A DNA stretch of 32,993 nucleotides, from assembly GCA_031384405.1 (NCBI GenBank), contig JANNAO010000188.1, positions 1-32,993 on the forward strand. The letters run 5' to 3'. This stretch comes from Verrucomicrobiota bacterium (GTDB taxonomy: Bacteria > Verrucomicrobiota > Verrucomicrobiia > Limisphaerales > JADLHS01). A program made the translations under genes and the position numbers. The notes below the pieces were generated by a model. It did not search any database and was not told the origin of the DNA. It saw only the letters and a program-made list of their open reading frames with translations. Position 1 is the stretch's first letter. Each line of letters opens with the position of its first letter. This document shows positions 2,143 to 25,203 of the stretch, piece after piece.

Positions 2143-2175
2143 AAAAAAGCCGCAGCCCGTTGTCCGGACTGCGGC
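2143..2175 (-). terminator. rho-independent terminator after the subtilase gene
   Basis: On the minus strand, 19 nt after the protease stop: GCCGCAG (2175-2169), a 13-nt loop, CTGCGGC (2155-2149), then directly TTTTTT (2148-2143). Confidence 0.6.
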
Positions 2176-2194
2176 AAAGAACTCAATCAATCGC

Positions 2195-8798: not shown

Positions 8799-11002
8799 CA
8801 GGGTAAAACGGTGATGGAATAATCCCGCACTACGAATCTCCCCACTGAATCTGTCATGTGCAAGGTGAAATCATAGATGCCCTGAGTGGTCGGATCGCCA
8901 GTGATCGCGCCTGTGCTGGTGTTCAACAACAGTCCGGGCGGAAGACCGGGCGAGCCAGCCGCCAGACTCCAGTTGTAAGGAGGCGTCGCTCCACCGGAAA
9001 CGGTGAACCCACTGAACACGGTGGAATAATTCACCGTGCCTGCCGCACTGATGGACGGCAATGCCGGGCCAGCGGGCGTAATCTGGATCAACGCCTGATT
9101 TTCGATGTTGAGAATATCCGTGCCGTTGGGATACACGACGGGCGCGTTGGTTGTTCCATCGAAGCTGCCCCAGATGAACCAGAGTAGCGCGCCAGCTTGA
9201 TCCAATAAATCCAAAGCTTGGTTTTGGTAAATCGGACCAACCTTATTATAAGTGAATACTTGCCCTGGATTGAAAACGCCCGGCCCGGCTAAACCGGGAT
9301 TAATATTCCCTTGATCGTAAGAAATACTTCGCGCAGCAGGGGGCACTGCTAGTAAAACTCCGTTAGGGCCAGGAGCCAGATCATCTGCATCCATCAAAAT
9401 GTCTGGTGTGGTCACAACTCGCCGCACGATGCGAGTTACCAAACTGTTGTTCGTCAGAACTGTGATCGGATAGTCGTTTGTGACCGGGAAAAAGAAGCGG
9501 CCAAGCAATGAATCCAAGTCGCGTCGCACGAATTGAACACGCTCAATTCCCTGGCGCAGCCCAAGAGTGTTCGCGGGGCAAACCACCGGCTTGATCTGGA
9601 AAATGTATTGATTGAATGACCCAATCGTTGTCTTTGAGAAGACTTCAATTCCAAGATTGGTCGCACCTGTCACTGCCGCGAACACAGGCGGATTGGTGAA
9701 TCCGACATTCAGAATCAACTGGGTGGAAACGATCGAGACGCCGCAATTATTGGACGGAATCAGGAAGTAATCCCCGAAGACACCATTTGTCATGAAGCTG
9801 ACTGAGGTGATGCTTTGGCAGATCAAGCCTGCGGGTGCAAACGGTGAACACGCTGTCGTCGAAATATTGGTGGTCACCACAGTCACAAGCCCATTCGTGA
9901 AGAACGTATTGGTGACAACATTCTCGAACGTATGCCGGAAATGCGTGGCGATGTTAGTCGTCACCACTGTCGCTGAGACAAGTTGTGCGGGCGCACTTGA
10001 TGGCGCGAAAGGCGAGTTGGTGAAGTAAAAGATGGTGTTGGTGGTGACCACATTGGTGAAAATGGTCACGGTGGAGGCGACTTGTAGTCCCGGGAACAAT
10101 GCGGCCATTGTCGCCGCATCGTTGGTCAACGATGCCGAGGCCAACGCTGTGAGATTCGAAGTGAAGAGCAACTGAATCGTGTTGTTCGTTACGAACGTAA
10201 TGGTTTCAGAGCCGTTGTTTTCAAAATTGTAATTGTTCGTCCGCATCAAATAGCGGAGTCCGGCGACATCGTCACGAGTCAAGCCAGTAAAGAAACTTCC
10301 ATAACCCGGCAATAACGATGCGACTGCTGTGAAAGTCAGAGCAGTAGGGTCAACTGCAAACTCAATGGCGTCTGCGAGCGGGTTGGGGCCTGTGCAGGCT
10401 TCAAGAATTAAGTAGCTATACAATGTGCCATTAACGTAGCTCGAAGGCTGCAATTGATCTGGATTTGAAAATACTGGATCGAAATTGCGTTTGATCACGT
10501 CATACACCTGATTTGCCGGACAGCTACCACCAGGAAGGGTAAAGCGGTTGTGCAAACTCCAGACGTAACGTTCCGGCTCGGCCAACCCCAATTGCTCTAC
10601 TAGTAAATTCAAAGTTGCGGATCGCAAATCATACAAGCCGAGTGCTTGAGCTAGATAATTTTCACGAGTCATTTCCAATGGCATTTCTGACAATGCACCC
10701 GTGTAACTGGAAACATTGGTCAGTCCATTCATGACCGCACAGGCACCATCAACCGCGTACAACCCATTCGATCCGAAATAATCTAGGAAGGTTTGGTTGG
10801 CGGAATAATAAATGACCGGCCTGTTCCAGCGGTATTCCTCCCCAAGATTTTTTGGCGCGCCGATGTCACCGCCTATCCCATAAGCAATCACTGGCACCTG
10901 ATAGGCTTCATTCAACGGGCCTAAAAGTGCAAACGCACCGGCTTTCTCGATGCCCAGCATCAAGACGGAGACCAAAATTAGTTGCTTCAACAATCTGACC
11001 AT
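8798..11002 (-). CDS. secreted protein of unknown function (734 aa) with a C-terminal He_PIG-like Ig segment
   Basis: ATG lies 13 nt after the stop of the upstream gene. Signal peptide MVRLLKQLILVSVLMLGIEKAGA. The C-terminal PPYNWSLAAGSPGLPPGLLLNTSTGAITGDPTTQGIYDFTLHMTD resembles the putative-Ig (He_PIG / dystroglycan-type) repeat. The rest has no motif I recognise. Confidence 0.8.
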   Translation of the reverse strand: MVRLLKQLILVSVLMLGIEKAGAFALLGPLNEAYQVPVIAYGIGGDIGAPKNLGEEYRWNRPVIYYSANQTFLDYFGSNGLYAVDGACAVMNGLTNVSSYTGALSEMPLEMTRENYLAQALGLYDLRSATLNLLVEQLGLAEPERYVWSLHNRFTLPGGSCPANQVYDVIKRNFDPVFSNPDQLQPSSYVNGTLYSYLILEACTGPNPLADAIEFAVDPTALTFTAVASLLPGYGSFFTGLTRDDVAGLRYLMRTNNYNFENNGSETITFVTNNTIQLLFTSNLTALASASLTNDAATMAALFPGLQVASTVTIFTNVVTTNTIFYFTNSPFAPSSAPAQLVSATVVTTNIATHFRHTFENVVTNTFFTNGLVTVVTTNISTTACSPFAPAGLICQSITSVSFMTNGVFGDYFLIPSNNCGVSIVSTQLILNVGFTNPPVFAAVTGATNLGIEVFSKTTIGSFNQYIFQIKPVVCPANTLGLRQGIERVQFVRRDLDSLLGRFFFPVTNDYPITVLTNNSLVTRIVRRVVTTPDILMDADDLAPGPNGVLLAVPPAARSISYDQGNINPGLAGPGVFNPGQVFTYNKVGPIYQNQALDLLDQAGALLWFIWGSFDGTTNAPVVYPNGTDILNIENQALIQITPAGPALPSISAAGTVNYSTVFSGFTVSGGATPPYNWSLAAGSPGLPPGLLLNTSTGAITGDPTTQGIYDFTLHMTDSVGRFVVRDYSITVLP

Positions 11003-11015
11003 ATAAAAGCTTTAG

Positions 11016-12890
11016 TTAGCGCAGTCTCTCGATCTGGTAGAAGCCCGCGCTGCTCCCACCCACATACATTGAATCCACAGTGCCCGCTGCAAAGCGCGGC
11101 CCGCCCACTTTCGTCCACGGGCCAGCCGGCGCCGCTGAACTCAAGACCTGATACATCAAACCGGATTGCGTGTTCCAATTCAGGAACAAGCCCTGAGCCG
11201 TCGGTTGAAGGCGCACTTTCAAGACGCTGTTCGCATCGTTGGGATTTGTGCCCGCTAGGAATTCATTCTTGTTGGATGCTCCATCGCCATCCGTATCCAC
11301 ATACGGCGAAGGCCAGCTAAAGATGTCGCCACCGAAATACGAGATCATCCATTCTTGAGGAATACCGCCCCACGTTGCTCCTGCACTGTAAGTCGTGTTC
11401 GTGGTCGCTGCCGACAGCGGTGAATGTCTGCCGTCCGTCAACACGTAGGACAATCGATAGCTATGCTGGCTGGCGGGGGCCAATCCTGTGGCATTCCAAT
11501 AGGTGTTGGTCACCACGGCGGTCGCCGTCGCCGCTCCATCAGCGAACACTTCATAGTTCGCGATGCTGAATCCGCTCACAGGCGGCCAGCTCACGCTCAA
11601 GGTGTTCGAGCTGATCACCGTGACGATCGGTGCTCCGGGTGCAGCCAAAGGTTGATTCGTGTTGACGTAGCGTTGGGCAAAGAGATCAAACACGCCTGCA
11701 CCGCCGACGAATCCACTCCAGACTGTCAGGAAACGCGCCGTACCGTCCGACGCCACTGTCGGATGAATCTGCTGGCTGATCGTGGAAGTGTTGATGCGGA
11801 ATTCGCTGCCAGCCAACATGCCGCTACCATTCAAAAATTGTCCATACACACCTTCGCGTGATCCGTCCTGTCCGAGGCTCGACCAAGTGACGATGAATTG
11901 CGTCCCTTGCACTGCGATCTTGGGAACGTATTGATCGCCGTGGGTGTAAGTGTTGATCCGCCGCGCGACTCCGCCCAAACCATTCGCTGAGAACGGACGC
12001 GCCACGATATCCCAACTGTTCGCCGCCACTATCGTGTCTTTCTCAGACCAAGCCACCGCAAAGCCACCATCAGTCGTCGCCGCCACGCTGGGATTCGCGC
12101 AGACGTTGGTGCTGCTGTTCACTAGGAATTCACCGCCGACCGCAGTGCCCGCCGCTGTAAAGAGGCGCGCGTAAATATCCGCTCCGTTCGCAACGCGTTG
12201 CTGTTCGGAAACCCACACCACGACAAATCGTCCGTCGCTCAACGGAGCGACGTTCGCAGTGCGTTGGTTGAACGCAGTAACTTGATTGACCAGAACTTCG
12301 CCACCGAACTTCGTGCCCGTCGGCGTCAAAATCTGGAGATAGACATCTCGCAAACTGTCGCCAGCCACTTGATTGAAACTCGACCACGCGACGACCGCGT
12401 TGCCGTTGGTCAACGTGGCGATGGTTGTCTCCAACTGAAACGTGTTGGTGGAGGTGTTGACATCAACATCGCCCGTCACCCATGTGCCCGCCGATGACAA
12501 AATCCGCGCTTTGATATGTTGAAAACTTTGCTTGCCGCTTTCCCACGCGAAAATCGCGCCGCCACCGTTCAACAATGAAACGACAGGCCGTTCTTGATCG
12601 TCCGCGCCATTTTGATTCACGCGAAATACACTGAGAGTTCCGCTGAGGCTGCTGTCCAGCTTCCGCGCGCTGATGCCATAGCCGTCGCCATCCGTGATGT
12701 TGTCGCGCCAGACGAGGTAACCGCCGCCGGGCTTGATGCTCAACTGCGGATGAACCTGCTCTCCGGGAAGTGTGCCTGCGATGCCGAACTCGCCACCTTC
12801 AGTGATGAAGCTGCTCTGGGCCTGCGCCAGCGTGGCCGAGACAACCAACAGACCGATGCCAGAAATCCGGGCGTAAGGGAACGATGCCAT
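11016..12890 (-). CDS. secreted 7-blade repeat (beta-propeller-like) protein with FN3-like domain and C-terminal tail
   Basis: Track ORF 11016..12986 trimmed to the ATG at 12890, where a signal peptide begins (MASFPYARISGIGLLVVSATLAQAQ). Seven ~55-aa repeats of the type GGEFxVNxxTxxxQxxPxVAxxxDGxFVVxWxS...xxGVYxQxF. An FN3-like segment (PGAPIVTVISSNTLSVSWPPVSGFSIANYEVF...). DTDGDGASNKNEFLAGTNPNDANS, then a tail ending AGFYQIERLR. Confidence 0.8.
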   Translation of the reverse strand: MASFPYARISGIGLLVVSATLAQAQSSFITEGGEFGIAGTLPGEQVHPQLSIKPGGGYLVWRDNITDGDGYGISARKLDSSLSGTLSVFRVNQNGADDQERPVVSLLNGGGAIFAWESGKQSFQHIKARILSSAGTWVTGDVDVNTSTNTFQLETTIATLTNGNAVVAWSSFNQVAGDSLRDVYLQILTPTGTKFGGEVLVNQVTAFNQRTANVAPLSDGRFVVVWVSEQQRVANGADIYARLFTAAGTAVGGEFLVNSSTNVCANPSVAATTDGGFAVAWSEKDTIVAANSWDIVARPFSANGLGGVARRINTYTHGDQYVPKIAVQGTQFIVTWSSLGQDGSREGVYGQFLNGSGMLAGSEFRINTSTISQQIHPTVASDGTARFLTVWSGFVGGAGVFDLFAQRYVNTNQPLAAPGAPIVTVISSNTLSVSWPPVSGFSIANYEVFADGAATATAVVTNTYWNATGLAPASQHSYRLSYVLTDGRHSPLSAATTNTTYSAGATWGGIPQEWMISYFGGDIFSWPSPYVDTDGDGASNKNEFLAGTNPNDANSVLKVRLQPTAQGLFLNWNTQSGLMYQVLSSAAPAGPWTKVGGPRFAAGTVDSMYVGGSSAGFYQIERLR

Positions 12891-13004
12891 AAGAAATTTA
12901 ACAATAGATAGCGCGCCCGGAATCCGTGCTTCACGGATCCAAGCTGACGGCGATTGATTCGCCCACACTGAGTTTTCTGTTTTCACGACTTCTTCTCTAC
13001 TTCT

Positions 13005-13886
13005 CTAAATCAATTCCTGCTGCCTTGTCTGCGCAGATTCCAGTTCCGCGAGCATGGAGCGAAAGCCCCAACCGCGATACAATCCCATCAACCGCCCCGC
13101 ATCCGCCGGTCTCGCAACCAACGCGTCTGCGGAAAATTCGCTTCCCACTTCCGTCTTCAACCGCACAAGCGATTGATTCCGTCGCACATCGGCCTCTGCC
13201 GTTTTCAATGCGCCCCGGATGCGTTCGGATTTCACTTCATCCAATCGCCGATACAACTCCACCACCGACCCGAATTGCTTCAACAAGTCCGTCGCCGTCT
13301 TCGGCCCGACTCCCGGCACGCCAGGAATGTTGTCCACACTGTCGCCCAGCAGACTCAACCAATCTCCGATCTGTTCCGGCTCGACTCCGGTCTTGCCTCG
13401 CACTTGCTCCGCTGTCCAAATCGTTTCCGACTTGTCGTTCGGATTCAACAAACCGATGCCCGGCGCAACGAGCTGCATAAAATCTTTATCCGCGCTGGCG
13501 ATCACCACTTCCATCCCCGCCTTCGCCGCCGCGTCCGTCACGAACGCGATGTAATCGTCCGCTTCCACACCGTCCGCGCAATACGAGGCGATGTTCGCCG
13601 CGCCGAGATACCCGATGATCTCGTCCAGTTGCGAACCGAGATCCGCTGGCATCTCCGGCCGTTGCGCCTTGTAACCCGGCAATGCCTCGCGCCGCTCCGC
13701 ACTCAACCCACCGTCCCACACCACGATCAGGTGGCTTGGATTCACCGTCGCCCGCATCTTGCCGAGCATCTTGATGAACCCGTAAATCGCATTCGTCGGT
13801 TTGCCCTCCGGCGAACTCAGACTGCGTATCGCATAAAACGCCCGGTATGCGTATGCGTGTCCATCCACTATCAAAATTCGCGCCAT
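13005..13886 (-). CDS. stand-alone 5'-3' exonuclease (Pol I N-terminal / FEN-like, PIN + H3TH)
   Basis: MARILIVDGHAYAYRAFYA, GVEADDYIA, ASADKDFMQL and the H3TH motif LLGDSVDNIPGVPGVGPKTATDLL. At 293 aa there is no polymerase domain. Confidence 0.9.
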   Translation of the reverse strand: MARILIVDGHAYAYRAFYAIRSLSSPEGKPTNAIYGFIKMLGKMRATVNPSHLIVVWDGGLSAERREALPGYKAQRPEMPADLGSQLDEIIGYLGAANIASYCADGVEADDYIAFVTDAAAKAGMEVVIASADKDFMQLVAPGIGLLNPNDKSETIWTAEQVRGKTGVEPEQIGDWLSLLGDSVDNIPGVPGVGPKTATDLLKQFGSVVELYRRLDEVKSERIRGALKTAEADVRRNQSLVRLKTEVGSEFSADALVARPADAGRLMGLYRGWGFRSMLAELESAQTRQQELI

Positions 13887-13952: not shown

Positions 13953-16649
13953 TTACCTCCCCGCAGGTGCGCTCTGGTAGAAGGGCAAATCTTCATCGCG
14001 ATTCGCGCGATTGCCAGCAGGGTCAATGATCGTCGGCGTAACAAAGATGATGAGGTTTTTCTTGCGCGTCTGCGAGGACTCGCTGCGGAACAATTTGCCG
14101 ATGAACGGCAGGTCGCCCAACATCGGAACCTTGTCCTTGATCTTGGTCACTTCGTCAGAGATCAAACCACCAAGCACCACCGTCTGGCCGTCCCACACGC
14201 TGCAACTTGTCGTGACTTGGCGCACGCGGAAGATCGGAAGCGGAAGAACTGATGTCACGCTTTGACCGGCTGGCGTGAGAGCTTGCGGAACAAAAATTTC
14301 AGCCGTCGAAAAGTCATACCCGACGAACTCGGTCAGTGTTGGAATAATTGTCATCTGGATCGTGACTCCATCAGCAGAGACCGTCGGCAACACGTCAATG
14401 ACAGGACCGAGCGGAATCGGAGAGGTTGTTGGACTTACGAATGTTGAAGTCTGGGCCTGCTGCGTCGTTCCACTTCCAGTGTTGTTGCCGCCACCATTCT
14501 GGCCCTGCTGTTGATCAATGCCCGTGACGATGGTCTTGACTTCAGCAACTGAAATCTGCGCCTGACGACCGCTGAGTGTGGTCACTTGACCTTCGTTCAA
14601 CAGATCAATGCCGTCACGCTGCTCGATGGCGCGAAGCACCACGCGGAATTGCGGATCGGTCAGAATACCCGTGAAGGTTGCAAGAGCAGGCGTGACGGAG
14701 TTGTCGCGTCCAAAATTGTTACGCAATCCACCCGTGAGCAGCGCGTCCGTCGTTGACGGCGCAATCGCTGTGTCTGTCACAATGTTCCCGGCAATGTCCC
14801 GGATGGTCTGACCGGGGAAGCTGCCAAAGATGTTGGCAGGCGTGGGCGATCCACCCAATGTCGGCTGTGTTCCACCTGATCCCAGCGATCTGCCACCGAA
14901 GATCATGTTCCCCAGATACCAATCAAAGCCGATGGCCTTGTTGTCATTCTGGGAGATCTCTGTGAAGCGGGTTTTGATATTGATCTGGGGCGGCGCAATG
15001 TTGAGCACTCGAACCACCTGCTCGATGATGTCCAACTCCTCAGCCGTCGCGCGGACATACAGCGTGCCTTCGCGGTCGTTGAAGAAAACTGTTTTGCCCA
15101 CAGCCGGGTCCAAATTCACACCCATGGTAACGAAGAATGTGCGAACTGCGGAGTGAACTGCCTCCATCGCGTTAGTGCGGGTCAAGCCAGCGATGCCTTG
15201 ACCGCTCTGGCCGCCGCCGCCTTGTCCACCGCCGCCACCACCGCCTTGTCCACCAGTGGTGCTGCTGGTAACGCTCACGCGGGGAATTATGAAACCACTG
15301 CCCTGACCGCTTTGGCCTCCACCACCACCGCCACCTCCTCCGCCACCACCACCGCCACCGCTTGACGACTGAACGTTGAGAATCAATCCACTGACGCTTT
15401 CCAAACCTTGATAAAAAGTGTTCGGGTCAACGTGAAACTGGCGGCTTTCCAATTGCAGCAACTCCGCGCCCTTGAGCGAAACAACCACGGCGTATTCTTC
15501 AAATGAAATCTTCAACGGTGTGCGCGCCACTTTAGTCACCGCGTCCAAAACATCCGCGAGACGCACATCACGCAACGGAGGGTTCAGCTTGATCTCGATG
15601 CTGGCGACGTCCACGGATTCAGTCAGAGGTGCTGCGATGGGCAAACCGGTCGCAGGATCAATTCCCACTGGCGCACCAGCAGGTGCGGCTGCGGAGTTCG
15701 GATTGACGATGATGTTCACGCCTTGCTTTGCGGTGTCGCGCTTGCGGGCTTCTTCGCTAAGGATACGAACCACTTCGCTCAACGGCATCGTGTCCGGTGC
15801 GCCTTCAAACGGGAAGCTCTCGAACTTGATCGCGTTGAGCTTGTTCATGATCGCCTGACGACCTTTACCGGTATTGATCTGGCCGTTCTTGTTGTAGGTA
15901 TTGGGGACGGACAGTGAGTCTCGCTTTTTCGGCGTGTTCCATGTGTCCACGACTTCGAGAACCTTGTTCGCATTGTCTTGCTCAGACTTTGACTTGCTGA
16001 TGCGATAACGCTGTTCGCGAAGCTGGCTGACCTGACGGTTCGCCGCGCTGTTCTGCGGATCGAGAGCGAGGGCTTGCTTCAGTTCTACTTCAGCTTGATC
16101 GAGCTTGCCCGCTTCGAGCAACACACGCGCATTGGTGACGTGCGTGGCGGCACTGATTTTGTTTGTCCGGGCTGCCCTCGCGTCACTGATCACTTCCGGC
16201 GTGGCAATAACGCCTGCGAGTTCAGCAAGGGTCTTGTCATTGGCGGATTTCGCGGCGATGGCGGAAGCATTCTTGGGGTCGGCCTTGAGCACCAACGCGA
16301 GTTGTGTTTGCACTTCGCGATAATCCCCACGACGGCGGGCGATTTCAGCGAGCTGCAAACGCACGGACGAGAAACCCTGGATGGCGGCGGCGGATTCTTG
16401 TGGTGAATTGCTTGGCCCGATCTGCTCAACGAGACCGACGGCGGCATCGTAAATCTTCGCGGCAGAAACGAGATCGCCGCGACCGACGGCTTGTTGCCCC
16501 TCGTCAAGTTTCTGGCGCAACAGGATGAGGTTTGCCTCGCGATAGACCGCCTGATTCACGGCGGCGTCCACATCCGCGTTTTGCGCTGTGGCGATTGACG
16601 TAGAGGCGAAGGCTAATGCCAGGCCGAAGTAGATTGCTGCTTTTGTCAT
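13953..16649 (-). CDS. pilQ: secretin (PilQ/GspD family) with N-terminal TPR-like region and poly-Gly linkers
   Basis: Signal peptide MTKAAIYFGLALAFASTSIATAQ. TPR-like repeats at aa ~30-215 (RRGDYREVQTQLALVLKADPKNASA; LLEAGKLDQAEVELKQALALDPQNSAA). STN/N0-like segment NAIKFESFPFEGAPDTMPLSEVVRILSEE. Gly tracts at aa 431-445 and 466-480. Secretin signature GQTVVLGGLISDEVTKIKDKVPMLGDLPFIGKLFRSESSQTRKKNLIIFVTPTII. Confidence 0.9.
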   Translation of the reverse strand: MTKAAIYFGLALAFASTSIATAQNADVDAAVNQAVYREANLILLRQKLDEGQQAVGRGDLVSAAKIYDAAVGLVEQIGPSNSPQESAAAIQGFSSVRLQLAEIARRRGDYREVQTQLALVLKADPKNASAIAAKSANDKTLAELAGVIATPEVISDARAARTNKISAATHVTNARVLLEAGKLDQAEVELKQALALDPQNSAANRQVSQLREQRYRISKSKSEQDNANKVLEVVDTWNTPKKRDSLSVPNTYNKNGQINTGKGRQAIMNKLNAIKFESFPFEGAPDTMPLSEVVRILSEEARKRDTAKQGVNIIVNPNSAAAPAGAPVGIDPATGLPIAAPLTESVDVASIEIKLNPPLRDVRLADVLDAVTKVARTPLKISFEEYAVVVSLKGAELLQLESRQFHVDPNTFYQGLESVSGLILNVQSSSGGGGGGGGGGGGGGGQSGQGSGFIIPRVSVTSSTTGGQGGGGGGGQGGGGQSGQGIAGLTRTNAMEAVHSAVRTFFVTMGVNLDPAVGKTVFFNDREGTLYVRATAEELDIIEQVVRVLNIAPPQINIKTRFTEISQNDNKAIGFDWYLGNMIFGGRSLGSGGTQPTLGGSPTPANIFGSFPGQTIRDIAGNIVTDTAIAPSTTDALLTGGLRNNFGRDNSVTPALATFTGILTDPQFRVVLRAIEQRDGIDLLNEGQVTTLSGRQAQISVAEVKTIVTGIDQQQGQNGGGNNTGSGTTQQAQTSTFVSPTTSPIPLGPVIDVLPTVSADGVTIQMTIIPTLTEFVGYDFSTAEIFVPQALTPAGQSVTSVLPLPIFRVRQVTTSCSVWDGQTVVLGGLISDEVTKIKDKVPMLGDLPFIGKLFRSESSQTRKKNLIIFVTPTIIDPAGNRANRDEDLPFYQSAPAGR
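15195..15368 (-). repeat. coding low-complexity tract inside the secretin gene (two poly-Gly / QSGQG runs)
   Basis: Encodes SSSG(15)QSGQGSGFIIPRVSVTSSTTGGQG(7)QGGGGQSGQG. The first run is 15 consecutive Gly codons (15315-15359) using 8 GGT, 4 GGC and 3 GGA. Confidence 0.9.
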
Positions 16650-16699
16650 GATGACTTCTTCTGTTGCTTGATGCTAAAAAATAAAAAATCCCCCGTCCG

Positions 16700-17494
16700 T
16701 CACTGCGGAATGGGAACCGGCGTTTTTTTCTGGTTCGATTTCGCCAACACTACAACTTCCGTCTTTGTGATGGCAACGATATTGTAATCTTCGCCACCAA
16801 ATTTAAGCGCGCCACCGACGCGTTGATTCAGCCACGGGGGACGATTCTCCAGCGGATATCTCAAATCCACCGTGTATCCATCCACGCGTTTGAAAGGTTT
16901 TTCTTTCGAGACGCTGACCAACTCTCCGCCTTCCACCAACTCAACCACCACTTCGGTCGGCGCATCCACCGGGCCTTTGACTTCACGTAAAACAAACACT
17001 TCGTTCTTCTCGTCCTTCTTGGAGACAAACGGCTTTCTGCCACGATTAGATGCCTTCGCCGCCGCTTCACGCTCCACATACATCACATACCGGGTGCCGC
17101 TGTCGGTAGTGCTCACGGAATCGAGTGTGATGGTTAGATGGAGCGGACGCTGATTCGTCACGATGAGCGCTCCCGGCCCGGTTTCGTCACCGGTCACGAT
17201 CTTGAAGATCGTTCCATCAGCCTTCTTCTGCCACAGCATCGGATTCAACACTTTGTTGGTGGTGGACAAATCCACAACTCCCGCTGTGGATAATCTCGTG
17301 AAGCGCGCCTGTTGCGTGGAGATGTTCAAAGGAAGAATCTCCTTGGCTGGGCGGTTGATGATCTCGCTGGCCTGTTGCTCCAGCGCGGTGCGCTCGCTGG
17401 GCACCATCACCAGCATCATGACCGCGATGACCACCAGCACGAGTAACACAATGCCGAGGATGATCTTTTCGTAATGTTTTTTGAGCAAGTCCAT
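16700..17494 (-). CDS. single-pass membrane protein of unknown function, in the PilP position of the pilus-like cluster
   Basis: ATG lies 4 nt after the stop of the upstream gene. N-terminal TM helix IILGIVLLVLVVIAVMMLVMV. No named motif; the assignment rests on gene order only (between the PilO-position gene and the secretin). Confidence 0.75.
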   Translation of the reverse strand: MDLLKKHYEKIILGIVLLVLVVIAVMMLVMVPSERTALEQQASEIINRPAKEILPLNISTQQARFTRLSTAGVVDLSTTNKVLNPMLWQKKADGTIFKIVTGDETGPGALIVTNQRPLHLTITLDSVSTTDSGTRYVMYVEREAAAKASNRGRKPFVSKKDEKNEVFVLREVKGPVDAPTEVVVELVEGGELVSVSKEKPFKRVDGYTVDLRYPLENRPPWLNQRVGGALKFGGEDYNIVAITKTEVVVLAKSNQKKTPVPIPQ

Positions 17495-17498
17495 GAGA

Positions 17499-18545
17499 CT
17501 ACTTTTGGGGAGGCAACAATTTGACGACGTGGATCAGAACCGTGATCCGCAACTCCTTTTCCTTCAGGAACGGTTGCAAACCACTTTTTGAACCCAGTGG
17601 GGCGATAGGTTGAGCCACGGGCGCGGCTTGGCCGTAGGGACTTCGGTAACCACCGGCACCAGCACCGCCGTAACGATTCGCAAACGCTCCACCGGGCCGG
17701 CCTCCCTCTTCACCAAGACCACCACGAGGATAAGCTGGCACCGCGACAGGTTGCTGATAATAGACCGGAGTTACAGCCGCCAAATCCGACATCGCCGATG
17801 CGGGCGCGGCCTCGCTGTTGATGGCCTTGACCAACAATCCGTAGGGCGACCGCGCAAATCCAGCCAACACACCCGCAAGTTCCGGCGTGAAGCAACGGAA
17901 TGTCACCTCATACGGCGTGACGATTGATAGCTCATTGGTCGTGGACGACAGATCGAGATAGTCCGTCGGCGTGCCTGCGAGATCATCGGGTGACCCCGGA
18001 ACGCGCTCGCGCCGGATGCCTTCGAGAGAATTTATCTTGGCCTCATTCAATACGTCGCAGATGACCTTCACTTCACCGAGTTGAACGGCCAGCGGCTGCA
18101 ACGTCCCCTCCGCGAACTTCACCAAGCCCGCCTGTTTCTCGAATGAAAAATTATACTTCGGCGGCAGGATGACGCTGTTGTTGGTGGCACCCCGTTGGAG
18201 ATCGCTGATCGTGTCTTGCAACACAGCTTTGTAATCTTTGGAAGCGATGTTCGTCCCTTCGGGCAACGCAGGAATGGATTGGAGGCGCGTTCCGAGTTTG
18301 GTCAGAAAGGCCTGAGCTTCCTTTTGCTGCTCTTTGGCCCGTTCGATGTTATTGACCTTGCCTTCACCGGGCGACGGATTCAGCCCTTTCAGGCGTTTCA
18401 ATTCGCTGTAGCCTTCGGACAATTTGGTGGTCTGTTCAGAGCTATTTTGCCAGCCAGAAAAACTATACCAGCCAGCCAAGCCCATGAGCACCAGTGCTAC
18501 GACAGCACCGATGACGAACACTAGATTTCGTTTGATCCAGTCCAT
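17499..18545 (-). CDS. Amuc_1100-like / PilO-position pilus-cluster protein
   Basis: N-terminal TM helix (LVFVIGAVVALVLMGLAGWY), then a coiled-coil-like segment. VTPYEVTFRCFTPELAGVLAGFARSPYGLLVKAINS and the C-terminal QPFLKEKELRITVLIHVVKLLPP resemble, from my memory of the Akkermansia Amuc_1100 sequence, PMPLEIAFQGDRESVLKAMNAITG...FTVNSIRI and KPYMGKEQVFVQVSLNLVHFNQP. A G/A/P-rich insert sits at aa 246-318. Confidence 0.75.
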   Translation of the reverse strand: MDWIKRNLVFVIGAVVALVLMGLAGWYSFSGWQNSSEQTTKLSEGYSELKRLKGLNPSPGEGKVNNIERAKEQQKEAQAFLTKLGTRLQSIPALPEGTNIASKDYKAVLQDTISDLQRGATNNSVILPPKYNFSFEKQAGLVKFAEGTLQPLAVQLGEVKVICDVLNEAKINSLEGIRRERVPGSPDDLAGTPTDYLDLSSTTNELSIVTPYEVTFRCFTPELAGVLAGFARSPYGLLVKAINSEAAPASAMSDLAAVTPVYYQQPVAVPAYPRGGLGEEGGRPGGAFANRYGGAGAGGYRSPYGQAAPVAQPIAPLGSKSGLQPFLKEKELRITVLIHVVKLLPPQK

Positions 18546-18546
18546 G

Positions 18547-20439
18547 TTAATGTTTCAAAGGCTTTTTGAGTGCGAGGGTGATGCCGAAACTGAATGTGCC
18601 CGTGGCTTCATCTTCAACGATTGACGGGTCAAGCTGTGTGCCAGCCGCGTCCACCAATTGACTGGCCGTCAGTTCAGCGTGAACGGCGTAGGCAATCTTG
18701 CTGTTTGCGGACGAAATTTGTTTCAGACTCACGCCACGAAACGACAGCTTGATCGTGCCCACCGCGTTTGTGATCGCTGTGCCATCGGCAGCAACGGCAG
18801 GCGCAGCCGCGCCTGCATACGCTCCATACGGACTCGGGCGCCCTTCTTCTTCAGCCATAGCGCGGCCTGGCATTGCACCACCATAGCGAGCACGGAATTG
18901 CGCGTCCATTTCAGGACTTAGGACGGGAGACGTCGCCCCGACACCTCCGCCAGCGGGTGCCGATGACCCGGTTGTGGAATATGAATTCAACGACTCAATC
19001 CATACGCCCGTGTCTGTCCCGAACTCACGCTTCGTGCCTTCTTCGGCCCGGATCAACGCCGCACGAACTTCGCGCAAAACATCCGCCCACATGTAACGCT
19101 CTTCCAGCCACTGCGAATACTGATCCGCATTAGCCGTGATCTTTTCCAGATCACCGTAGGCGCGCTTGAAGCTCTGCTCCTTAGACTGCAACTGAGTGAT
19201 TGTCGGTTGAATCTTCTCCAACTGATCTTTCTTCACCGTGGCCAGCTTGTTGAACAGAAATCCCACCGCCAACGCCATCAACGCCAGACTCGCCAGCGTC
19301 GCGATGAAATACGGCTTCTTCTGGTTGAAACTCTGCCAGCGCAGCGTGCTTTCCGGCATCAAGTTCAACTCCACCGGACAGTTCGCCATGTTGCGAAGTC
19401 CCAACCCGACGACTTCGCCGAGCGAATGAGCCACGCGGGAGAGTTCTTCCAGATTCACACCCGGATCAATCTGCACGTTGCGGAATGGATTGAAGTATTC
19501 CACCGGCACACTCAGCTTTTCCGCAAAGAATTGCGCCGTGTAAGGCATGATGGCCGCGCCGCCAGACAAGAACAACCGCTGCGGAGCGGTGCCGCCTTGT
19601 TGTCCGCGATAAAACTGCATGGTCTGGTTGACCTGAATGTGCAGACGCGTCATGAACTGCCGCGCGATCTTGGAAATCGCCGCCTGATGCTGATTCTCCG
19701 GCTCTTCATACGCGCCACCGAGACTGACAAAACCCTCATCAACCTTAATCTTGTCCGCCATGTCGAACTTCAACTTGGCTTCGTTCGCAAAATCCTGAGT
19801 GATGGAGTTCGCGCCGAGATTGATGCTGCGGGCGAAAACTTTTCCCTTCTCGAAGAACAGCAGATTGCTCGTCTTCGCGCCGATATCGAGCAACATGGTG
19901 CAATCTTCCAGCTCGCCGTAGTTGAAACGGAACGAATTGCACAACGCCGCAGGCGACACATCGCAAATCTGCAACTGCAATCCGCTCGCCGACGCCGTGC
20001 GGAACAATCCCTCCACGATGTCCGACTTGATCGCCACCAACAGCACTTCCAGCTCGCCACCGGCAGTCGTGCCGAGGATTTGATAATCCCAGACCACTTC
20101 CGCCAACGGGAACGGCACATTCTGCTGCGCCTCGTATTGGATGATCTGCGTGACCTTGCTCGCCTCGACGGGTGGCAACTTCACGAACTTGGAAAACACA
20201 TGGAAACCCGGCGCGCAGACATTGATGTCCTTGGCTTTGATGCCAAGGGACGAGATGAGTTCCTGAAGCGTCTTGAGGATGAGAGTCTCGCGTTTGGTTT
20301 CCTGCGAGCCTTCAAGACCAAGCGACTTGATGGCGTATTGCTTGAGCACAAGCCCGCCCGCCTCGTTCGTTTCGAACTCGGCCAGCTTGAGGCTGCCTGC
20401 GCCAAAATCCACTGCCAAAAATGAATTGCTATTAAGCAT
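18547..20439 (-). CDS. pilM: type IV pilus assembly PilM (actin-like ATPase fold) fused to a PilN-like transmembrane/periplasmic region
   Basis: N-terminus FLAVDFGAGSLKLAEF, then LLDIGAKTSNLLFF and LFLSGGAAIMP (actin/FtsA-like phosphate motifs as in PilM). At aa ~357 comes LNLMPES (the PilN-type INLLP start), then TM helix YFIATLASLALMALAVGFLF, a coiled coil and a C-terminal domain. The stop lies 1 nt before the next gene's start. Confidence 0.85.
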   Translation of the reverse strand: MLNSNSFLAVDFGAGSLKLAEFETNEAGGLVLKQYAIKSLGLEGSQETKRETLILKTLQELISSLGIKAKDINVCAPGFHVFSKFVKLPPVEASKVTQIIQYEAQQNVPFPLAEVVWDYQILGTTAGGELEVLLVAIKSDIVEGLFRTASASGLQLQICDVSPAALCNSFRFNYGELEDCTMLLDIGAKTSNLLFFEKGKVFARSINLGANSITQDFANEAKLKFDMADKIKVDEGFVSLGGAYEEPENQHQAAISKIARQFMTRLHIQVNQTMQFYRGQQGGTAPQRLFLSGGAAIMPYTAQFFAEKLSVPVEYFNPFRNVQIDPGVNLEELSRVAHSLGEVVGLGLRNMANCPVELNLMPESTLRWQSFNQKKPYFIATLASLALMALAVGFLFNKLATVKKDQLEKIQPTITQLQSKEQSFKRAYGDLEKITANADQYSQWLEERYMWADVLREVRAALIRAEEGTKREFGTDTGVWIESLNSYSTTGSSAPAGGGVGATSPVLSPEMDAQFRARYGGAMPGRAMAEEEGRPSPYGAYAGAAAPAVAADGTAITNAVGTIKLSFRGVSLKQISSANSKIAYAVHAELTASQLVDAAGTQLDPSIVEDEATGTFSFGITLALKKPLKH

Positions 20440-20853
20440 CGCGTTTCTTCGCCAACCGGGTTTTTTCGCCGCCTTGCGTACACAACAGAAGGAAGCCCGC
20501 GTTGGTTAACGGAATTAACCAGAAGGGTCAAACAGAAAAAGCTTTTCCGTGCAAATCTTCTGCAATAATTCCGCTCTCTCAAACTCCGCAACAACCGACG
20601 TGAGTCGGCTCAACCATTCGGAAACTCAGAGCGAACTGATATTCGCCGCTACGTTCTGAAAGAAACGCTTCCCGAAAGTGATTATAGGTTTGATCCGACA
20701 AACACCATCTTCGCGCATTCCTTCATCCCCTCACGCCATCCATTCGCTCGCCCAAAATCGCGCCCGCACCTTTCACTCGTTTTTTCGGCGAGGTTTGAGG
20801 CAATTCAAGCTTGCCAATCGGAGCATCGCCCGGCATCGTTTCCGCCCGTTAGT

Positions 20854-20928
20854 GCGTGGTTAGCTCAGTGGTAGAGCATTACCTTGACACGGTAGGGGTC
20901 ACAGGTTCGAACCCTGTACCGCGCACCA
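20854..20928 (+). tRNA. tRNA-Val: tRNA-Val, anticodon GAC, CCA encoded
   Basis: Folded by hand: acceptor GCGTGGT/ACCGCGC (one G-U), D arm GCTC-AGTGGTA-GAGC, anticodon arm TTACC-TTGACAC-GGTAG, variable loop GGGTC, T arm ACAGG-TTCGAAC-CCTGT, discriminator A, CCA. Total 75 nt. Confidence 0.93.
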
Positions 20929-21296: not shown

Positions 21297-21432
21297 ACCG
21301 TTCGTTATCACAGTCAGAAGTCTGACGCTCAAAGTCAATCGTGCAGGAATCTGCGGAGTCATCCGCTCCGGCGTGAACATGAAAATGTATCTGTCAGCCC
21401 CAACTGAGCGTGACAGCATGTATGCCGACTCA

Positions 21433-24229: not shown

Positions 24230-24436
24230 ATGAGCGATCGAGAACTTGTCATCAACGCCGTCAAAGACATGCCGGAGAATACTTCGATGAAAGATATTTT
24301 GATTTCATTGAAGTTGCTCACCTCTATCAATCAAGGATTGGATGATACGCGGTGTGGCGCAGTGACTGCCCATGAGGATGTCGTCAAACTATTGGAAACA
24401 TGGATTACAAAATCGTCTGGACGAACCGCAGCCTGA
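24230..24436 (+). CDS. putative antitoxin of a ParE/RelE-type TA pair
   Basis: 68-aa ORF directly upstream of, and overlapping by 37 nt, a ParE-like toxin start. C-terminal INQGLDDTRCGAVTAHEDVVKLLETW resembles the ...GLxDxxxGRxxxHEEVxxxLxxW ends of ParE-partner antitoxins. Lower GC than surroundings (24, 28 and 26 G+C in three consecutive 60-nt lines). Confidence 0.65.
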   Translation: MSDRELVINAVKDMPENTSMKDILISLKLLTSINQGLDDTRCGAVTAHEDVVKLLETWITKSSGRTAA

Positions 24437-25203
24437 CTGACCTCGAAGAAATCGCCGGGTTCATAGCTGAGGTAAATCCGGACGCAGCCAGGAAAGTTGG
24501 TCGAAACATTTTCAAGAGGGTCACGCTCATATCCCAGTTTCCACGCGCAGGCCGCATCTGCTCTGAGGCTTCACGGGAAGACGTCCGCGAGATTCCTTCA
24601 CCACCCTATCGCATCATCTACCAAGTCTTGGATGACAGTAAGACCATCAGCATCCTCACGGTCTGGCACGGCGCGCAGACAGAACCCCATTTTGATTCCA
24701 GCGAATTGAAAGAGCGCGGCCCGGCGTATGGGATAAAAAAACCTTTCGTCGCCATCGCCGCCATGTCGCTCAATCGCGTCATCGGCAACGGCAATCAAAT
24801 CCCGTGGCATCTGCCGGAGGATTTCAAGTGGTTCAAAGCTGTGACCTCCGGCAACGTCATCGTGATGGGGCGAAAAACGTTCGAGTCCATCGGCAAACCA
24901 TTGCCCAATCGCGAAACCATCGTGCTAAGTCGCTCGGCGTTTTCGTTTCCAGGTGTAACGACGATTCGCAGCCTGGATGAATTGTCGCCACTGGTGGCCG
25001 ACCGTCAGGTCTTCATCTGCGGCGGCGCGCAGATTTATGGGCAGACGTTGCCGCTCTGTTCCGAGTTGTTTCTCACACTGGTGAAACGCGAGGTTTCTGG
25101 CGATGCGCTCTTCCCGAAGTTTGAAGACCAGTTTGAACTCATCGAAGAAATCCGCGACACGCCTGAGTTCAAAATTCTGCGCTACCGGAATCGCGGATTG
25201 TAG
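24400..25203 (+). CDS. folA: single 267-codon ORF: ParE/RelE-family toxin domain (aa 1-~97) continuing in frame into dihydrofolate reductase (aa ~113-267)
   Basis: Toxin part: MDYKIVWTNRSLTDLEEIAGFI...PYRIIYQVLDDSKTISILTVWHGAQ. DHFR part: FVAIAAMSLNRVIGNGNQIPWHLPEDFKWFKAVTSGNVIVMGRKTFESIGKPLPNRETIVLSR...VFICGGAQIY. There is no stop codon between them. The only candidate internal starts are TTG 24706 or the ATG inside IAAMSLN, which would truncate strand A. Confidence 0.8.
   Translation: MDYKIVWTNRSLTDLEEIAGFIAEVNPDAARKVGRNIFKRVTLISQFPRAGRICSEASREDVREIPSPPYRIIYQVLDDSKTISILTVWHGAQTEPHFDSSELKERGPAYGIKKPFVAIAAMSLNRVIGNGNQIPWHLPEDFKWFKAVTSGNVIVMGRKTFESIGKPLPNRETIVLSRSAFSFPGVTTIRSLDELSPLVADRQVFICGGAQIYGQTLPLCSELFLTLVKREVSGDALFPKFEDQFELIEEIRDTPEFKILRYRNRGL

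What the first reader, a model, noticed from the sequence alone, without database searches (positions are those of the whole stretch)
13953..20439. Compact pilM/N - Amuc_1100-like - unknown - secretin cluster with no pilin, ATPase or platform gene nearby
Four tightly packed minus-strand genes have gaps of 1, 4 and 50 nt. They reproduce the pilM-N-O-P-Q order of type IVa pilus alignment and secretin subcomplexes, but with non-canonical parts. PilM is fused to a PilN-like region. The PilO position holds a 348-aa protein that, from memory of the sequence, resembles Akkermansia Amuc_1100, the outer-membrane pili-like protein encoded in the Amuc_1098-1102 cluster. The PilP position holds an unassignable 264-aa single-pass protein. 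The secretin carries TPR repeats and poly-Gly linkers. No pilin, PilB/PilT ATPase, PilC platform or prepilin peptidase gene lies within 6 kb on either side. The flanks are a tRNA on one side and an exonuclease plus the giant secreted-protein cassette on the other. The machine these four proteins serve in PVC bacteria (a pilus, a T2SS-like exporter for the neighbouring tail-tagged proteins, or DNA uptake) is not established.
Basis: partly seen in the sequence, partly recalled or inferred. Interest (0 to 1): 0.7.

Follow-up and report, generated by a model that had tools for sequence, protein, structure and literature searches.

The report
Verrucomicrobial MUL2-type pilus alignment–secretin module
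These four genes are a soil/freshwater Verrucomicrobiota version of the Akkermansia Amuc_1098–1101 ("MUL2") pilus-like envelope module, a kind of system already known and curated, although its third protein is still unclassified and the module is always linked to a downstream string of large secreted proteins.

Summary
Four co-directional genes sit at exactly the stated coordinates with gaps of 1, 4 and 50 nt. They are PilM fused to a PilN-type motif, TM helix and periplasmic tail (630 aa), an Amuc_1100-like protein (348 aa), an unassigned single-pass protein (264 aa, "p264") and a TPR-secretin (898 aa).

The 348-aa protein hits NCBIfam Amuc_1100_fam and lies in Pfam PF28028 (Amuc_1100). Its AlphaFold model finds the Amuc_1100 crystal structures first and PilO next. 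PilM and the secretin hit Amuc_1101_fam and Amuc_1098_fam.

The implied novelty does not hold. The PilM–N fusion and the TPR-secretin are traits of the Akkermansia family, that cluster is published as MUL2, and pilMNOPQ modules are commonly encoded apart from pilins and ATPases.

Three things remain new or unexplained:
- p264 belongs to a large, length-conserved family (705 clusters at 50% identity). Its model is confident, has no PDB fold match, and resembles Amuc_1099 only at the N-terminus.
- No MUL2A (Amuc_1102) gene is adjacent.
- The module sits in a deeply conserved eight-gene block with a 5'-3' exonuclease and three large secreted proteins.

Most likely it is the alignment and secretin subcomplex of a type IV filament machine. 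Interest is moderate to low.

The parts
18547..20439 (-). pilM/N fusion gene (630 aa). It has a cytoplasmic actin-like PilM domain (aa 1-350), a PilN-type 'VELNLMP' motif (aa 356-362, nt 19354-19374), a TM helix (aa 378-396, nt 19252-19308), a periplasmic coiled coil, a Gly/Ala/Pro-rich linker and a terminal alpha/beta segment.
   Evidence: Pfam PilM_2 7.5e-38. TIGR01175 scores 149 bits against a cutoff of 133, and Amuc_1101_fam gives 4e-147 over aa 1-462. The best PDB match is M. xanthus PilM at 1e-37, with no GspL hit. The junction aligns with the PilN peptide of the 5EOU PilM-PilN chimera. The junction and TM helix are near-invariant in 22 loci.
17499..18545 (-). Amuc_1100-like, PilO-position gene (348 aa). 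It has an invariant cytoplasmic N-terminus 'MDWIKRNL', a TM helix at aa 8-26, long helices, a core alpha-beta-beta domain at aa ~145-250, a disordered Gly/Ala/Pro-rich insert at aa 251-320 and a last strand at aa 332-343.
   Evidence: NCBIfam Amuc_1100_fam 4.8e-16 over aa 1-187, below cutoff. Precomputed Pfam PF28028 = Amuc_1100. The ten best Foldseek hits of the AF2 model are Amuc_1100 structures 6laf/6kny/6lad (E 4e-6 to 4e-5, target TM 0.66-0.75), then PilO 2rjz, 5uvr and 3jc8_O.
16700..17494 (-). p264, the PilP-position gene (264 aa). It has a conserved cytoplasmic N-terminus 'MDLLKKHYEKI', a TM helix at aa 11-29, a periplasmic helix, a linker and a beta-rich region at aa 88-261.
   Evidence: No Pfam hit. 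522 close homologues are all 'hypothetical'. 705 clusters at 50% identity match, all about 260-275 aa. AF2 pLDDT is 81, about 90 in the beta region. No PDB fold match reaches E<=1e-3. Amuc_1099_fam matches only the first ~50-70 aa, with sporadic sub-threshold PilP and GspC hints in the beta region of some members.
13953..16649 (-). TPR-secretin gene (898 aa). It has a signal peptide, TPR region (aa ~87-232, nt 15954-16391), Gly-rich linker (aa 413-499), Secretin_N (aa 513-555) and secretin domain (aa 674-876, nt 14022-14630).
   Evidence: Pfam Secretin 5.7e-31 plus TPR families. Amuc_1098_fam 1.2e-107, GspD 1.7e-40, MshL 4.2e-35 and PilQ 7e-27, all below their cutoffs. PDB: GspD 2e-18, PilQ 2e-15. 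The architecture matches Amuc_1098 (907 aa, TPR 71-239, secretin 650-876; PMC4960237).
20440..20546 (-). Conserved promoter-like element and 5' leader of pilM. It contains 'TTTTTCTGTTTGACC' (TTGACC at 20526-20531), 15 nt, 'GTTAAC/GATAAC' (20505-20510), then a possible 8-bp hairpin (arms 20489-20496 and 20468-20475).
   Evidence: The ~107 nt before the ATG are conserved in 24 loci while DNA further upstream is unrelated. The stem pairs in 80% of cells against 49-66% when slid, with 5 pairs changed on both sides. RNAalifold predicts no structure and the consensus promoter scan found nothing.
5880..13886 (-). Co-conserved downstream string: 5'-3' exonuclease (13005-13886), 656-aa TSP3/FN3 protein (11016-12986), 734-aa He_PIG protein (8798-11002) and 972-aa protein (5880-8798). 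Gaps are 66, 18, 13 and -1 nt. It is linked to the module by synteny; a functional link is inferred only.
   Evidence: Pfam. The order is the same in every related locus long enough to show it, including L031, where p264 is 32% and p348 36% identical.

Best explanation
The four genes encode the envelope-spanning alignment and secretin subcomplex of a type IV filament machine (T4aP-like). It is the Pedosphaera-type counterpart of the Akkermansia Amuc_1098-1101 (MUL2) module.

Proposed mechanism:
- Cytoplasmic PilM is covalently joined, through a PilN-type 'xLNLMP' motif, to a TM helix and a periplasmic PilN-like tail.
- The PilN-like tail pairs with the bitopic PilO-fold protein (the 348-aa Amuc_1100-like protein).
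- The bitopic p264 takes the PilP/GspC role, linking this inner-membrane pair to the periplasmic N-domains of the secretin.
- The secretin's fused N-terminal TPR region substitutes for a separate TPR pilotin or accessory protein.
- Pilins, the PilB/PilT ATPases, the PilC platform and the prepilin peptidase are encoded elsewhere.

Shown: the homology or fold of PilM, the PilN motif, the PilO/Amuc_1100 fold and the secretin; the conservation and purifying selection of all four genes. Inferred: the protein-protein contacts, the PilP-like role of p264, and the existence and output of the filament (adhesion to or uptake of polymeric substrates, by analogy with MUL2).
For: PilM passes the curated pilM cutoff and is closest to T4aP PilM structures, not GspL. 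The fusion junction aligns with the PilN N-terminal peptide and is invariant across 22 loci. The 348-aa protein is Amuc_1100/PilO-like by profile, Pfam family and fold. All four NCBIfam Amuc_109x/110x models are the best or only specific hits. The gene order is pilM-N-O-P-Q, tightly packed. The four-gene order is conserved in every sufficiently long locus among 31 fetched (28 with flanks, 3 duplicate contigs), with dN/dS 0.06-0.23. Some relatives carry an adjacent Che-type chemosensory cluster, a single-domain response regulator or a prepilin-leader gene. coaE lies downstream on the same strand, and in Akkermansiaceae coaE flanks the MUL2 secretin. The literature treats MUL2 as a type IV-like pilus system required for mucin use (PMC13174399) and places Amuc_1098 in the outer membrane (PMC4960237).
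Against: No pilin, ATPase, platform or peptidase gene was seen in the window or within 10 kb in the 28 flanked related loci, so a filament is assumed and not shown. The Amuc_1098/1100/1101 family matches fall below the equivalog cutoffs. p264 shows no PilP fold and no lipobox, and only its N-terminus resembles Amuc_1099. Pfam PilN and PilO models do not hit, and the PilN-like tail shows no significant profile similarity to the 348-aa family. The secretin domain scores higher with GspD than with PilQ. The MUL2A/Amuc_1102 pilin-like gene is not adjacent.
Confidence: 0.7

Rival explanations
1. This is a T2SS-like exporter or surface-display system. The PilM-N fusion acts like GspL, the 348-aa protein like GspM, TM-anchored p264 like GspC and the secretin like GspD. 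The co-conserved downstream large Sec-dependent proteins (656, 734, 972 and perhaps the 1205-aa subtilase) are its dedicated substrates or partners.
For: The exonuclease and three large secreted proteins follow the secretin in every sufficiently long locus, down to 32-36% identity of the middle proteins, while the upstream side varies. Gaps are short (66, 18, 13, -1 nt). The secretin scores best with GspD. The fused L-like and TM-anchored C-like topologies resemble T2SS (established knowledge of GspL, GspM and GspC). There are weak GspM and GspC_delta hints. [quoted passage not shown]
Against: PilM is T4P-type and above the pilM cutoff, with no GspL similarity. A cytoplasmic housekeeping-type exonuclease sits between the secretin and the large proteins. 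No pseudopilin or GspE/F is nearby. In Akkermansiaceae the secretin is followed by coaE, not by such proteins, so the linkage is lineage-specific. The large proteins show no secretion-system signature.
Confidence: 0.17
2. This is a DNA-uptake (competence) pilus module like Thermus PilMNOWQ or E. coli HofMNOPQ. The conserved adjacent 5'-3' exonuclease would process incoming DNA.
For: The exonuclease directly follows the secretin in all loci. The secretin weakly hits the HofQ models. T. thermophilus competence PilM is a significant PDB hit.
Against: The exonuclease is a standalone Pol I N-terminal/FEN-type enzyme with no signal peptide, which makes it a replication and repair gene. polA-type genes and coaE are common housekeeping neighbours (own knowledge). 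No comEA, comEC or dprA gene is in the window.
Confidence: 0.05
3. This is a stand-alone outer-membrane channel complex for polymer uptake ('selfish' glycan import) that works without a canonical filament.
For: mul genes are reported to be needed for intracellular mucin accumulation in Akkermansia, and Pedosphaeraceae take up laminarin into the periplasm (PMC13174399). No filament genes are linked.
Against: No secretin is known to import polymers without a motor and filament. PilM/N/O homologues are only known as parts of type IV filament machines (established knowledge). No glycan-binding or CAZyme domain occurs in the four proteins.
Confidence: 0.08

Closest known systems
Akkermansia muciniphila Amuc_1098-Amuc_1102 cluster (MUL2: Amuc_1101 = MUL2B PilM, Amuc_1102 = MUL2A)
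   Same: The gene order and strand logic are the same. PilM is fused to a TM segment (Amuc_1101_fam 4e-147). There is an Amuc_1100-fold protein (Pfam PF28028; Foldseek top hits). The secretin has the same TPR-plus-secretin architecture and a similar length (898 vs 907 aa). The third protein shares an Amuc_1099-like N-terminal anchor. coaE lies downstream on the same strand.
   Different: The Amuc_1098/1100/1101 family matches are below NCBIfam equivalog cutoffs, and sequence identity to the Amuc_1100 structures is about 10%. The periplasmic part of p264 (264 aa) does not match the 321-position Amuc_1099 profile. No Amuc_1102/MUL2A gene lies upstream; the window has a tRNA-Val there. An exonuclease and several large secreted proteins sit between the secretin and coaE. 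The host lineage (Pedosphaera-type MAGs) was not covered in the published MUL2 survey.
Type IVa pilus PilMNOPQ alignment/secretin subcomplex (P. aeruginosa, M. xanthus, T. thermophilus)
   Same: PilM is a true homologue. A PilN N-terminal motif and TM helix are present, and the 348-aa protein has a PilO fold. The order is M-N-O-P-Q. As in P. aeruginosa, the module is encoded apart from pilins and ATPases.
   Different: PilM and PilN are one polypeptide. The PilO-like protein carries long helices and a disordered insert. The PilP position holds a TM-anchored protein with no detectable PilP fold, where a lipoprotein would be expected. The secretin has TPRs in place of AMIN domains.
MSHA pilus MshI-J-K-L (+MshN) block (comparison from own knowledge, apart from the MshL score)
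   Same: MshI is a PilM-PilN-type fusion followed by PilO-like, PilP-like and secretin genes, and a TPR protein (MshN) belongs to the system. The window secretin covers the whole MshL model (4.2e-35).
   Different: The MshL score is below its cutoff (121 vs 250 bits). No MshI, MshJ or MshK model hit. Here the TPR is fused to the secretin, and no mshE/G/pilin genes are adjacent.
Type II secretion GspL-GspM-GspC-GspD
   Same: The topology is the same: a cytoplasmic actin-like domain fused to a TM helix and periplasmic domain, a bitopic ferredoxin-fold partner, a TM-anchored secretin connector, and a GspD-like secretin domain (the best-scoring known secretin type).
   Different: The PilM domain is T4P-type, not GspL. 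The gene order is that of pil, not gsp. No pseudopilins or GspE/F are linked.

Membership tests
MUL2 / Amuc_1098-1102 cluster | Amuc_1101-type PilM fused to a TM segment | tested here: met
   Amuc_1101_fam 4e-147 over aa 1-462 of profile positions 1-461/608, although 491 bits is below the equivalog cutoff of 650. The TM helix is at aa 378-396.
MUL2 / Amuc_1098-1102 cluster | Amuc_1100-family protein next to PilM | tested here: met
   Pfam PF28028 (Amuc_1100) is precomputed on the window protein and its relatives. The ten best Foldseek hits are Amuc_1100 crystal structures. NCBIfam gives 59 bits against a cutoff of 180, covering the N-terminal half only.
MUL2 / Amuc_1098-1102 cluster | Amuc_1099-family protein between the Amuc_1100-like gene and the secretin | tested here: inconclusive
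   The position and N-terminal anchor match (profile 1-52; E 0.04 for the window protein, down to 2e-5 in 13 of 46 family members). The remaining ~270 profile positions are unmatched. No Amuc_1099 structure or sequence was available for a fold comparison.
MUL2 / Amuc_1098-1102 cluster | Amuc_1098-type TPR-secretin | tested here: met
   Amuc_1098_fam 1.2e-107 (361 bits, cutoff 750). The TPR-plus-secretin layout is as described for Amuc_1098.
MUL2 / Amuc_1098-1102 cluster | Adjacent MUL2A (Amuc_1102, archaeal-type pilin-like) gene upstream of PilM | tested here: not met
   There are 414 nt without a plausible ORF, then tRNA-Val on the other strand. No recurrent small upstream gene appears in related loci. 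A copy elsewhere in the genome cannot be excluded.
T4aP PilMNOPQ | PilM (actin-like, binds the PilN N-terminus) | tested here: met
   TIGR01175 scores 149.1 bits against a cutoff of 133. PDB PilM hits range from 1e-37 to 1e-18.
T4aP PilMNOPQ | PilN (INLLP-type motif, TM helix, periplasmic alpha/beta domain) | tested here: inconclusive
   The motif and TM helix are present and align with the PilN peptide in 5EOU. The Pfam PilN model does not hit, and the fold of the tail was not modelled.
T4aP PilMNOPQ | PilO fold | tested here: met
   Foldseek hits PilO 2rjz (1.1e-3, prob 1.0), 5uvr and 3jc8_O. The Pfam PilO model does not hit.
T4aP PilMNOPQ | PilP lipoprotein with a beta-sandwich that binds secretin N0 | tested here: not met
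   p264 has a TM anchor and no lipobox. No PilP or GspC-HR structure is among the listed Foldseek hits, and none reaches E<=1e-3. pilP_fam gives only sub-threshold hits in 2 of 46 family members.
T4aP PilMNOPQ | PilQ secretin with AMIN domains | tested here: not met
   The secretin domain is present, but TIGR02515 scores 94 bits against a cutoff of 284. There is no AMIN hit, and TPRs are present instead.
T4aP PilMNOPQ | Pilin, PilB, PilT, PilC and PilD in the genome | not testable with these tools
   The window is the whole 33-kb contig, and only +/-10 kb of related contigs can be read. None of these genes was seen there.
T2SS (GspC/D/L/M) | GspL-type cytoplasmic domain and a GspD equivalog | tested here: not met
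   No GspL hit. GspD scores 139 bits against a cutoff of 351.

The most novel reading that the evidence does not exclude
In Pedosphaera-type Verrucomicrobiota the module is not just a pilus part. It would be the core of a conserved eight-gene unit in which a generalist TPR-secretin complex, with p264 as a new kind of PilP/GspC-like connector, exports, displays or works with the three co-inherited large Ca-binding/Ig-like proteins. That would make it a lineage-specific hybrid between a type IV pilus and a type II secretion system, possibly tied to polymer capture.
Probability: 0.15. Interest if true: 0.65.

Novelty: new variant of a known kind. Interest (0 to 1): 0.35.

Why it matters
Amuc_1100 and Amuc_1098 are studied intensively as host-active "outer-membrane pili-like" proteins. 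Here the homology and fold evidence places the Amuc_1100 family in the PilO position of an inner-membrane alignment complex. It also shows that the module is widespread in environmental Verrucomicrobiota outside the orders already surveyed. The p264 family (at least 705 clusters at 50% identity, confidently modelled, no solved analogue, labelled 'hypothetical' everywhere) is the one clearly uncharacterised component. The deep linkage to an exonuclease and three large secreted proteins gives a concrete, testable lead on what the machine does in free-living relatives. None of this changes the known picture of type IV filament systems.

Tried and rejected
- Sequence searches of the 348-aa and 264-aa proteins and their family profiles against the PDB found nothing, not even Amuc_1100. 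The Amuc_1100 link appears only through the NCBIfam/Pfam profiles and through fold.
- hhalign of the PilN-like tail against the 348-aa family gave probability 20%, so no demonstrable N/O paralogy.
- The genome-contig scan with a PilM alignment used very narrow patterns. It returned only 23 close relatives and did not reach Akkermansia, so Amuc_1099 and Amuc_1102 could not be compared directly.
- Motif scans for PilB/T Walker boxes in the fetched loci found none. Prepilin leaders turned up only as scattered DUF1559-like genes.
- Upstream neighbours are conserved only within sub-clades and are unrelated to pili.
- The promoter/terminator consensus scan was at or below chance.
- Rfam found only the tRNA.
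- RNAalifold predicted no structure on the leader alignment.
- PDB and NCBIfam searches of the large downstream proteins gave only FN3, TSP3 and subtilase hits, with no PilY1-like signal.
- Davey et al. 2023 (PMC11741908), Hughes et al. 2025 (PMC13312221) and Mou et al. 2020 (PMC7137384) are not held, so MUL2 phenotypes are cited second-hand from PMC13174399.
Full report
**Observation.** Upstream there are 414 nt with no plausible ORF, then tRNA-Val on the plus strand at 20854-20928. Downstream on the same strand are a 5'-3' exonuclease, four large signal-peptide proteins (656, 734, 972 and 1205 aa) and coaE. Nothing in the 33-kb window is a pilin, PilB/T, PilC or PilD.

**PilM/N (630 aa).**
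- Residues 10-350 are a PilM domain (Pfam PilM_2 7.5e-38). TIGR01175 pilM scores 149 bits, above its curated cutoff of 133.
- The closest solved proteins are T4aP PilM from M. xanthus (1e-37), T. thermophilus and P. aeruginosa. There is no GspL hit.
- The best model overall is NCBIfam Amuc_1101_fam (4e-147, aa 1-462), so the extension beyond PilM is shared with Akkermansia Amuc_1101.
- The junction '...GLGLRNMANC-PVELNLMP' aligns with '...GLALRSFDSSGMARINLLP' of the engineered P. aeruginosa PilM-PilN(N-terminus) chimera 5EOU. A TM helix follows at aa 378-396.
- This junction and TM helix are nearly invariant in 22 related loci.
- The periplasmic tail is a coiled coil, a Gly/Ala/Pro-rich linker and a terminal alpha/beta segment. 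It has no Pfam PilN hit and no significant profile similarity to the 348-aa family (hhalign probability 20%). 'PilN-like' therefore rests on the motif and the topology.

**348-aa protein.**
- NCBIfam Amuc_1100_fam matches aa 1-187 (4.8e-16, 59 bits, cutoff 180).
- The public precomputed annotation places it and more than 100 relatives in Pfam PF28028, which is the family named Amuc_1100. PGAP names relatives at 54-58% identity 'Amuc_1100 family pilus-like protein'.
- Sequence searches against the PDB fail, even with a family profile.
- The AlphaFold model has mean pLDDT 63, with the core (aa ~145-250 plus 330-345) at 80-88. Its ten best PDB matches are Amuc_1100 crystal structures (6laf, 6kny, 6lad; E 4e-6 to 4e-5, target TM 0.66-0.75, about 10% identity). 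Next come P. aeruginosa PilO (2rjz, 5uvr) and M. xanthus PilO.
- The protein has one N-terminal TM helix (aa 8-26) preceded by an invariant 'MDWIKRNL'. That pattern fits a bitopic inner-membrane PilO-like protein better than a cleaved signal peptide; this is an inference.

**264-aa protein (p264).**
- It has no Pfam hit. Its 522 close homologues are all 'hypothetical', and PGAP agrees.
- A profile search of 1.84 billion cluster representatives finds 705 clusters (300 at E<=1e-30), all about 260-275 aa.
- The AlphaFold model is confident (pLDDT 81, about 90 over the beta-rich aa 110-264). Foldseek finds no PDB match at E<=1e-3. The weak top hits are small beta-barrels (KOW, Tudor, the TraI translocation-signal domain), and no PilP or GspC structure is listed.
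- Amuc_1099_fam matches the window protein at E 0.04. It matches 13 of 46 spread family members (best 2e-5), but always only the first ~50-70 residues against profile positions 1-52(-70) of 321.
- Two members give sub-threshold pilP_fam hits and one a GspC hit in the beta region.
- p264 is thus the positional equivalent of Amuc_1099 and PilP with a shared N-terminal anchor, but its periplasmic domain is unassigned.
- It is under purifying selection (dN/dS 0.12-0.23).

**Secretin (898 aa).** It has a signal peptide, TPRs at about aa 87-232, a Gly-rich linker at aa 413-499, Secretin_N and a secretin domain at aa 674-876. The best model is Amuc_1098_fam (1.2e-107), followed by GspD, MshL and PilQ, all below cutoff. 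PDB matches put GspD slightly ahead of PilQ. Ottman et al. 2016 described Amuc_1098 as a 907-aa protein with TPRs at 71-239 and a secretin domain at 650-876. [quoted passage not shown] The TPR-secretin is a known family trait.

**Relatives and context.**
- Long contigs encoding relatives of the 348-aa protein and a genome scan with a PilM alignment gave 28 flanked loci, three of which duplicate the same contig.
- All are uncultured Verrucomicrobiota MAGs. The titles include 'Pedos-510' and 'Pedosphaera sp.', and several are clearly mislabelled as Bifidobacterium or Akkermansia muciniphila.
- Every locus long enough shows the same order: PilMN, Amuc_1100-like, p264, secretin, 5'-3' exonuclease, a ~650-aa TSP3 protein, a ~740-aa He_PIG protein and a ~970-aa protein.
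- The same holds on a 253-kb contig whose p264, 348-aa and secretin homologues are only 32-36% identical.
- The upstream side is variable. It is a tRNA here, a CheW-MCP-CheA-hybrid cluster in one species, a divergent single-domain response regulator in three, a prepilin-leader DUF1559-like gene in a few, and exosortase genes in L031.
- No PilB/T-type Walker motif occurs in any locus.

**What is already known.** The Akkermansia cluster Amuc_1098-1102 was described as a pili-like cluster in 2016-17 (PMC4960237, PMC5332112). It is now called MUL2 (Davey et al. 2023, cited in PMC13174399), with amuc_1101 = MUL2B (PilM), amuc_1102 = MUL2A (archaeal-type-IV-pilin-like, PDB 7DSZ), and amuc_1099 and amuc_1100 uncharacterised. 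It is modelled as a type IV-like pilus system for attachment and glycan use. At least three of the locus genes were found in 190 of 238 non-Akkermansiaceae Verrucomicrobiales and 97 of 235 Chthoniobacterales, and there was no strong presence in Methylacidiphilales. Its flanks are the secretin, dephospho-CoA kinase, rho and 3-dehydroquinase. Pedosphaera-type lineages were not in that survey. The Amuc_1100 core is reported as two alpha-beta-beta motifs resembling T4P and T2SS proteins (PMC13119276).

**Interpretation.** The most economical reading (confidence about 0.7) is that the module is the alignment and secretin subcomplex of a type IV filament machine, homologous to MUL2 and Amuc_1098-1101. 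Separation from pilin and motor genes is ordinary for pilMNOPQ; in P. aeruginosa these genes are unlinked (established knowledge). The topology (fused M-N, bitopic O-like, TM-anchored connector, GspD-like secretin) also mirrors GspL-M-C-D and the MSHA MshI-J-K-L block (own knowledge). Together with the deep linkage to large secreted proteins, this keeps a T2SS-like export or display role alive as the main rival (about 0.17). A competence role suggested by the exonuclease is unlikely, because the enzyme is a cytoplasmic Pol I-type FEN and a typical housekeeping neighbour of coaE.

**Differences from MUL2.** No MUL2A gene is adjacent, the periplasmic domain of p264 does not match Amuc_1099, and an exonuclease plus large proteins are inserted between the secretin and coaE. 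On that basis I file it as a new variant of a known kind and not as a strict member.

**Side observation.** The ~107 nt before the pilM ATG are conserved in all loci ('TTTTTCTGTTTGACC'-N15-'GATAAC'), whereas the sequence further upstream is unrelated. A possible 8-bp leader hairpin pairs in 80% of cells against 49-66% when slid, with limited covariation. RNAalifold predicts nothing, and I picked the stem by eye from these same sequences, so this is only a lead.

**Verdict.** The system is a recognisable and already curated kind, and its remaining novelty lies in p264 and the conserved eight-gene block. Interest is 0.35.

Noticed in passing
window 5880-13886 (-); L001, L003-L005, L007-L010, L012-L014, L018-L022, L024, L026-L028, L031: The pil module is always followed by the same string: 5'-3' exonuclease, a ~650-aa TSP3/FN3 protein, a ~740-aa He_PIG protein and a ~970-aa protein. 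This holds down to 32-36% identity of the middle pil proteins, while upstream genes vary. The ~650-aa protein (43% identical in L031) is better conserved than p264 or the 348-aa protein.
   Followed up: partly
window 20440-20546 (-): A promoter-like element ('TTTTTCTGTTTGACC'-N15-'GATAAC/GTTAAC') and a ~70-nt leader upstream of pilM are conserved in 24 loci. A possible 8-bp hairpin pairs in 80% of cells against 49-66% when slid. RNAalifold finds no structure.
   Followed up: partly
window 11016-12986 (-), aa 538-588: The TSP3-type Ca-binding motif of the 656-aa protein hits the NCBIfam Amuc_1099_fam profile at positions 104-153 (E 8.5e-7, below cutoff), whereas p264 hits positions 1-52 of the same profile. 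This is probably a shared short motif, but it hints that Amuc_1099 combines features that are split between two genes here.
   Followed up: no
window 2195-5812, 5880-8798, 11016-12986 (-) and 21373-24174 (+): Four large secreted proteins, including a subtilase and a FAD-oxidoreductase/Golvesin_C protein on the other side of the module, end in a small C-terminal domain. Its last strand reads [FY][YI]R[IAL]x... ('GFYQIERLR', 'RYYRIGYQP', 'RYYRALVPVP', 'SYIRLRATRL'). The tail is conserved in orthologues ('FYRIVRLR').
   Followed up: partly
window 17499-18545 and 16700-17494 (-), first ~10 codons: Both bitopic proteins have near-invariant short cytoplasmic N-termini of similar form ('MDWIKRNL...' and 'MDLLKKHYEKI...'). 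This suggests a cytoplasmic contact, for example with PilM or the motor, and not a mere signal-anchor.
   Followed up: no
window 1558-2382 (-): coaE (dephospho-CoA kinase) lies downstream on the same strand. In Akkermansiaceae coaE directly flanks the MUL2 secretin, which suggests ancestral synteny with later insertion of the exonuclease and large-protein genes.
   Followed up: partly
L003/L018 1-7813; L004/L013 and L026 just upstream of pilM; L031 2348-4161: Some relatives carry, next to pilM, a CheW-MCP-CheA(Hpt-CheW-REC) cluster, a divergent single-domain response regulator, or exosortase EpsH/EpsI genes.
   Followed up: partly
L007, L009, L014, L015, L019, L020, L023, L026, L027 (record titles): Several GenBank MAG titles ('uncultured Bifidobacterium sp.', 'Bifidobacteriaceae', 'Akkermansia muciniphila isolate MH-08apr19-10') are attached to contigs that are clearly Pedosphaera-type Verrucomicrobiota (68-87% PilM identity to the window). 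These are mislabelled bins.
   Followed up: no
window 24400-25203 (+): One ORF carries both a ParE toxin domain (aa 5-93) and a dihydrofolate reductase domain (aa 117-251). It is either a fusion or two genes merged by the ORF caller.
   Followed up: no
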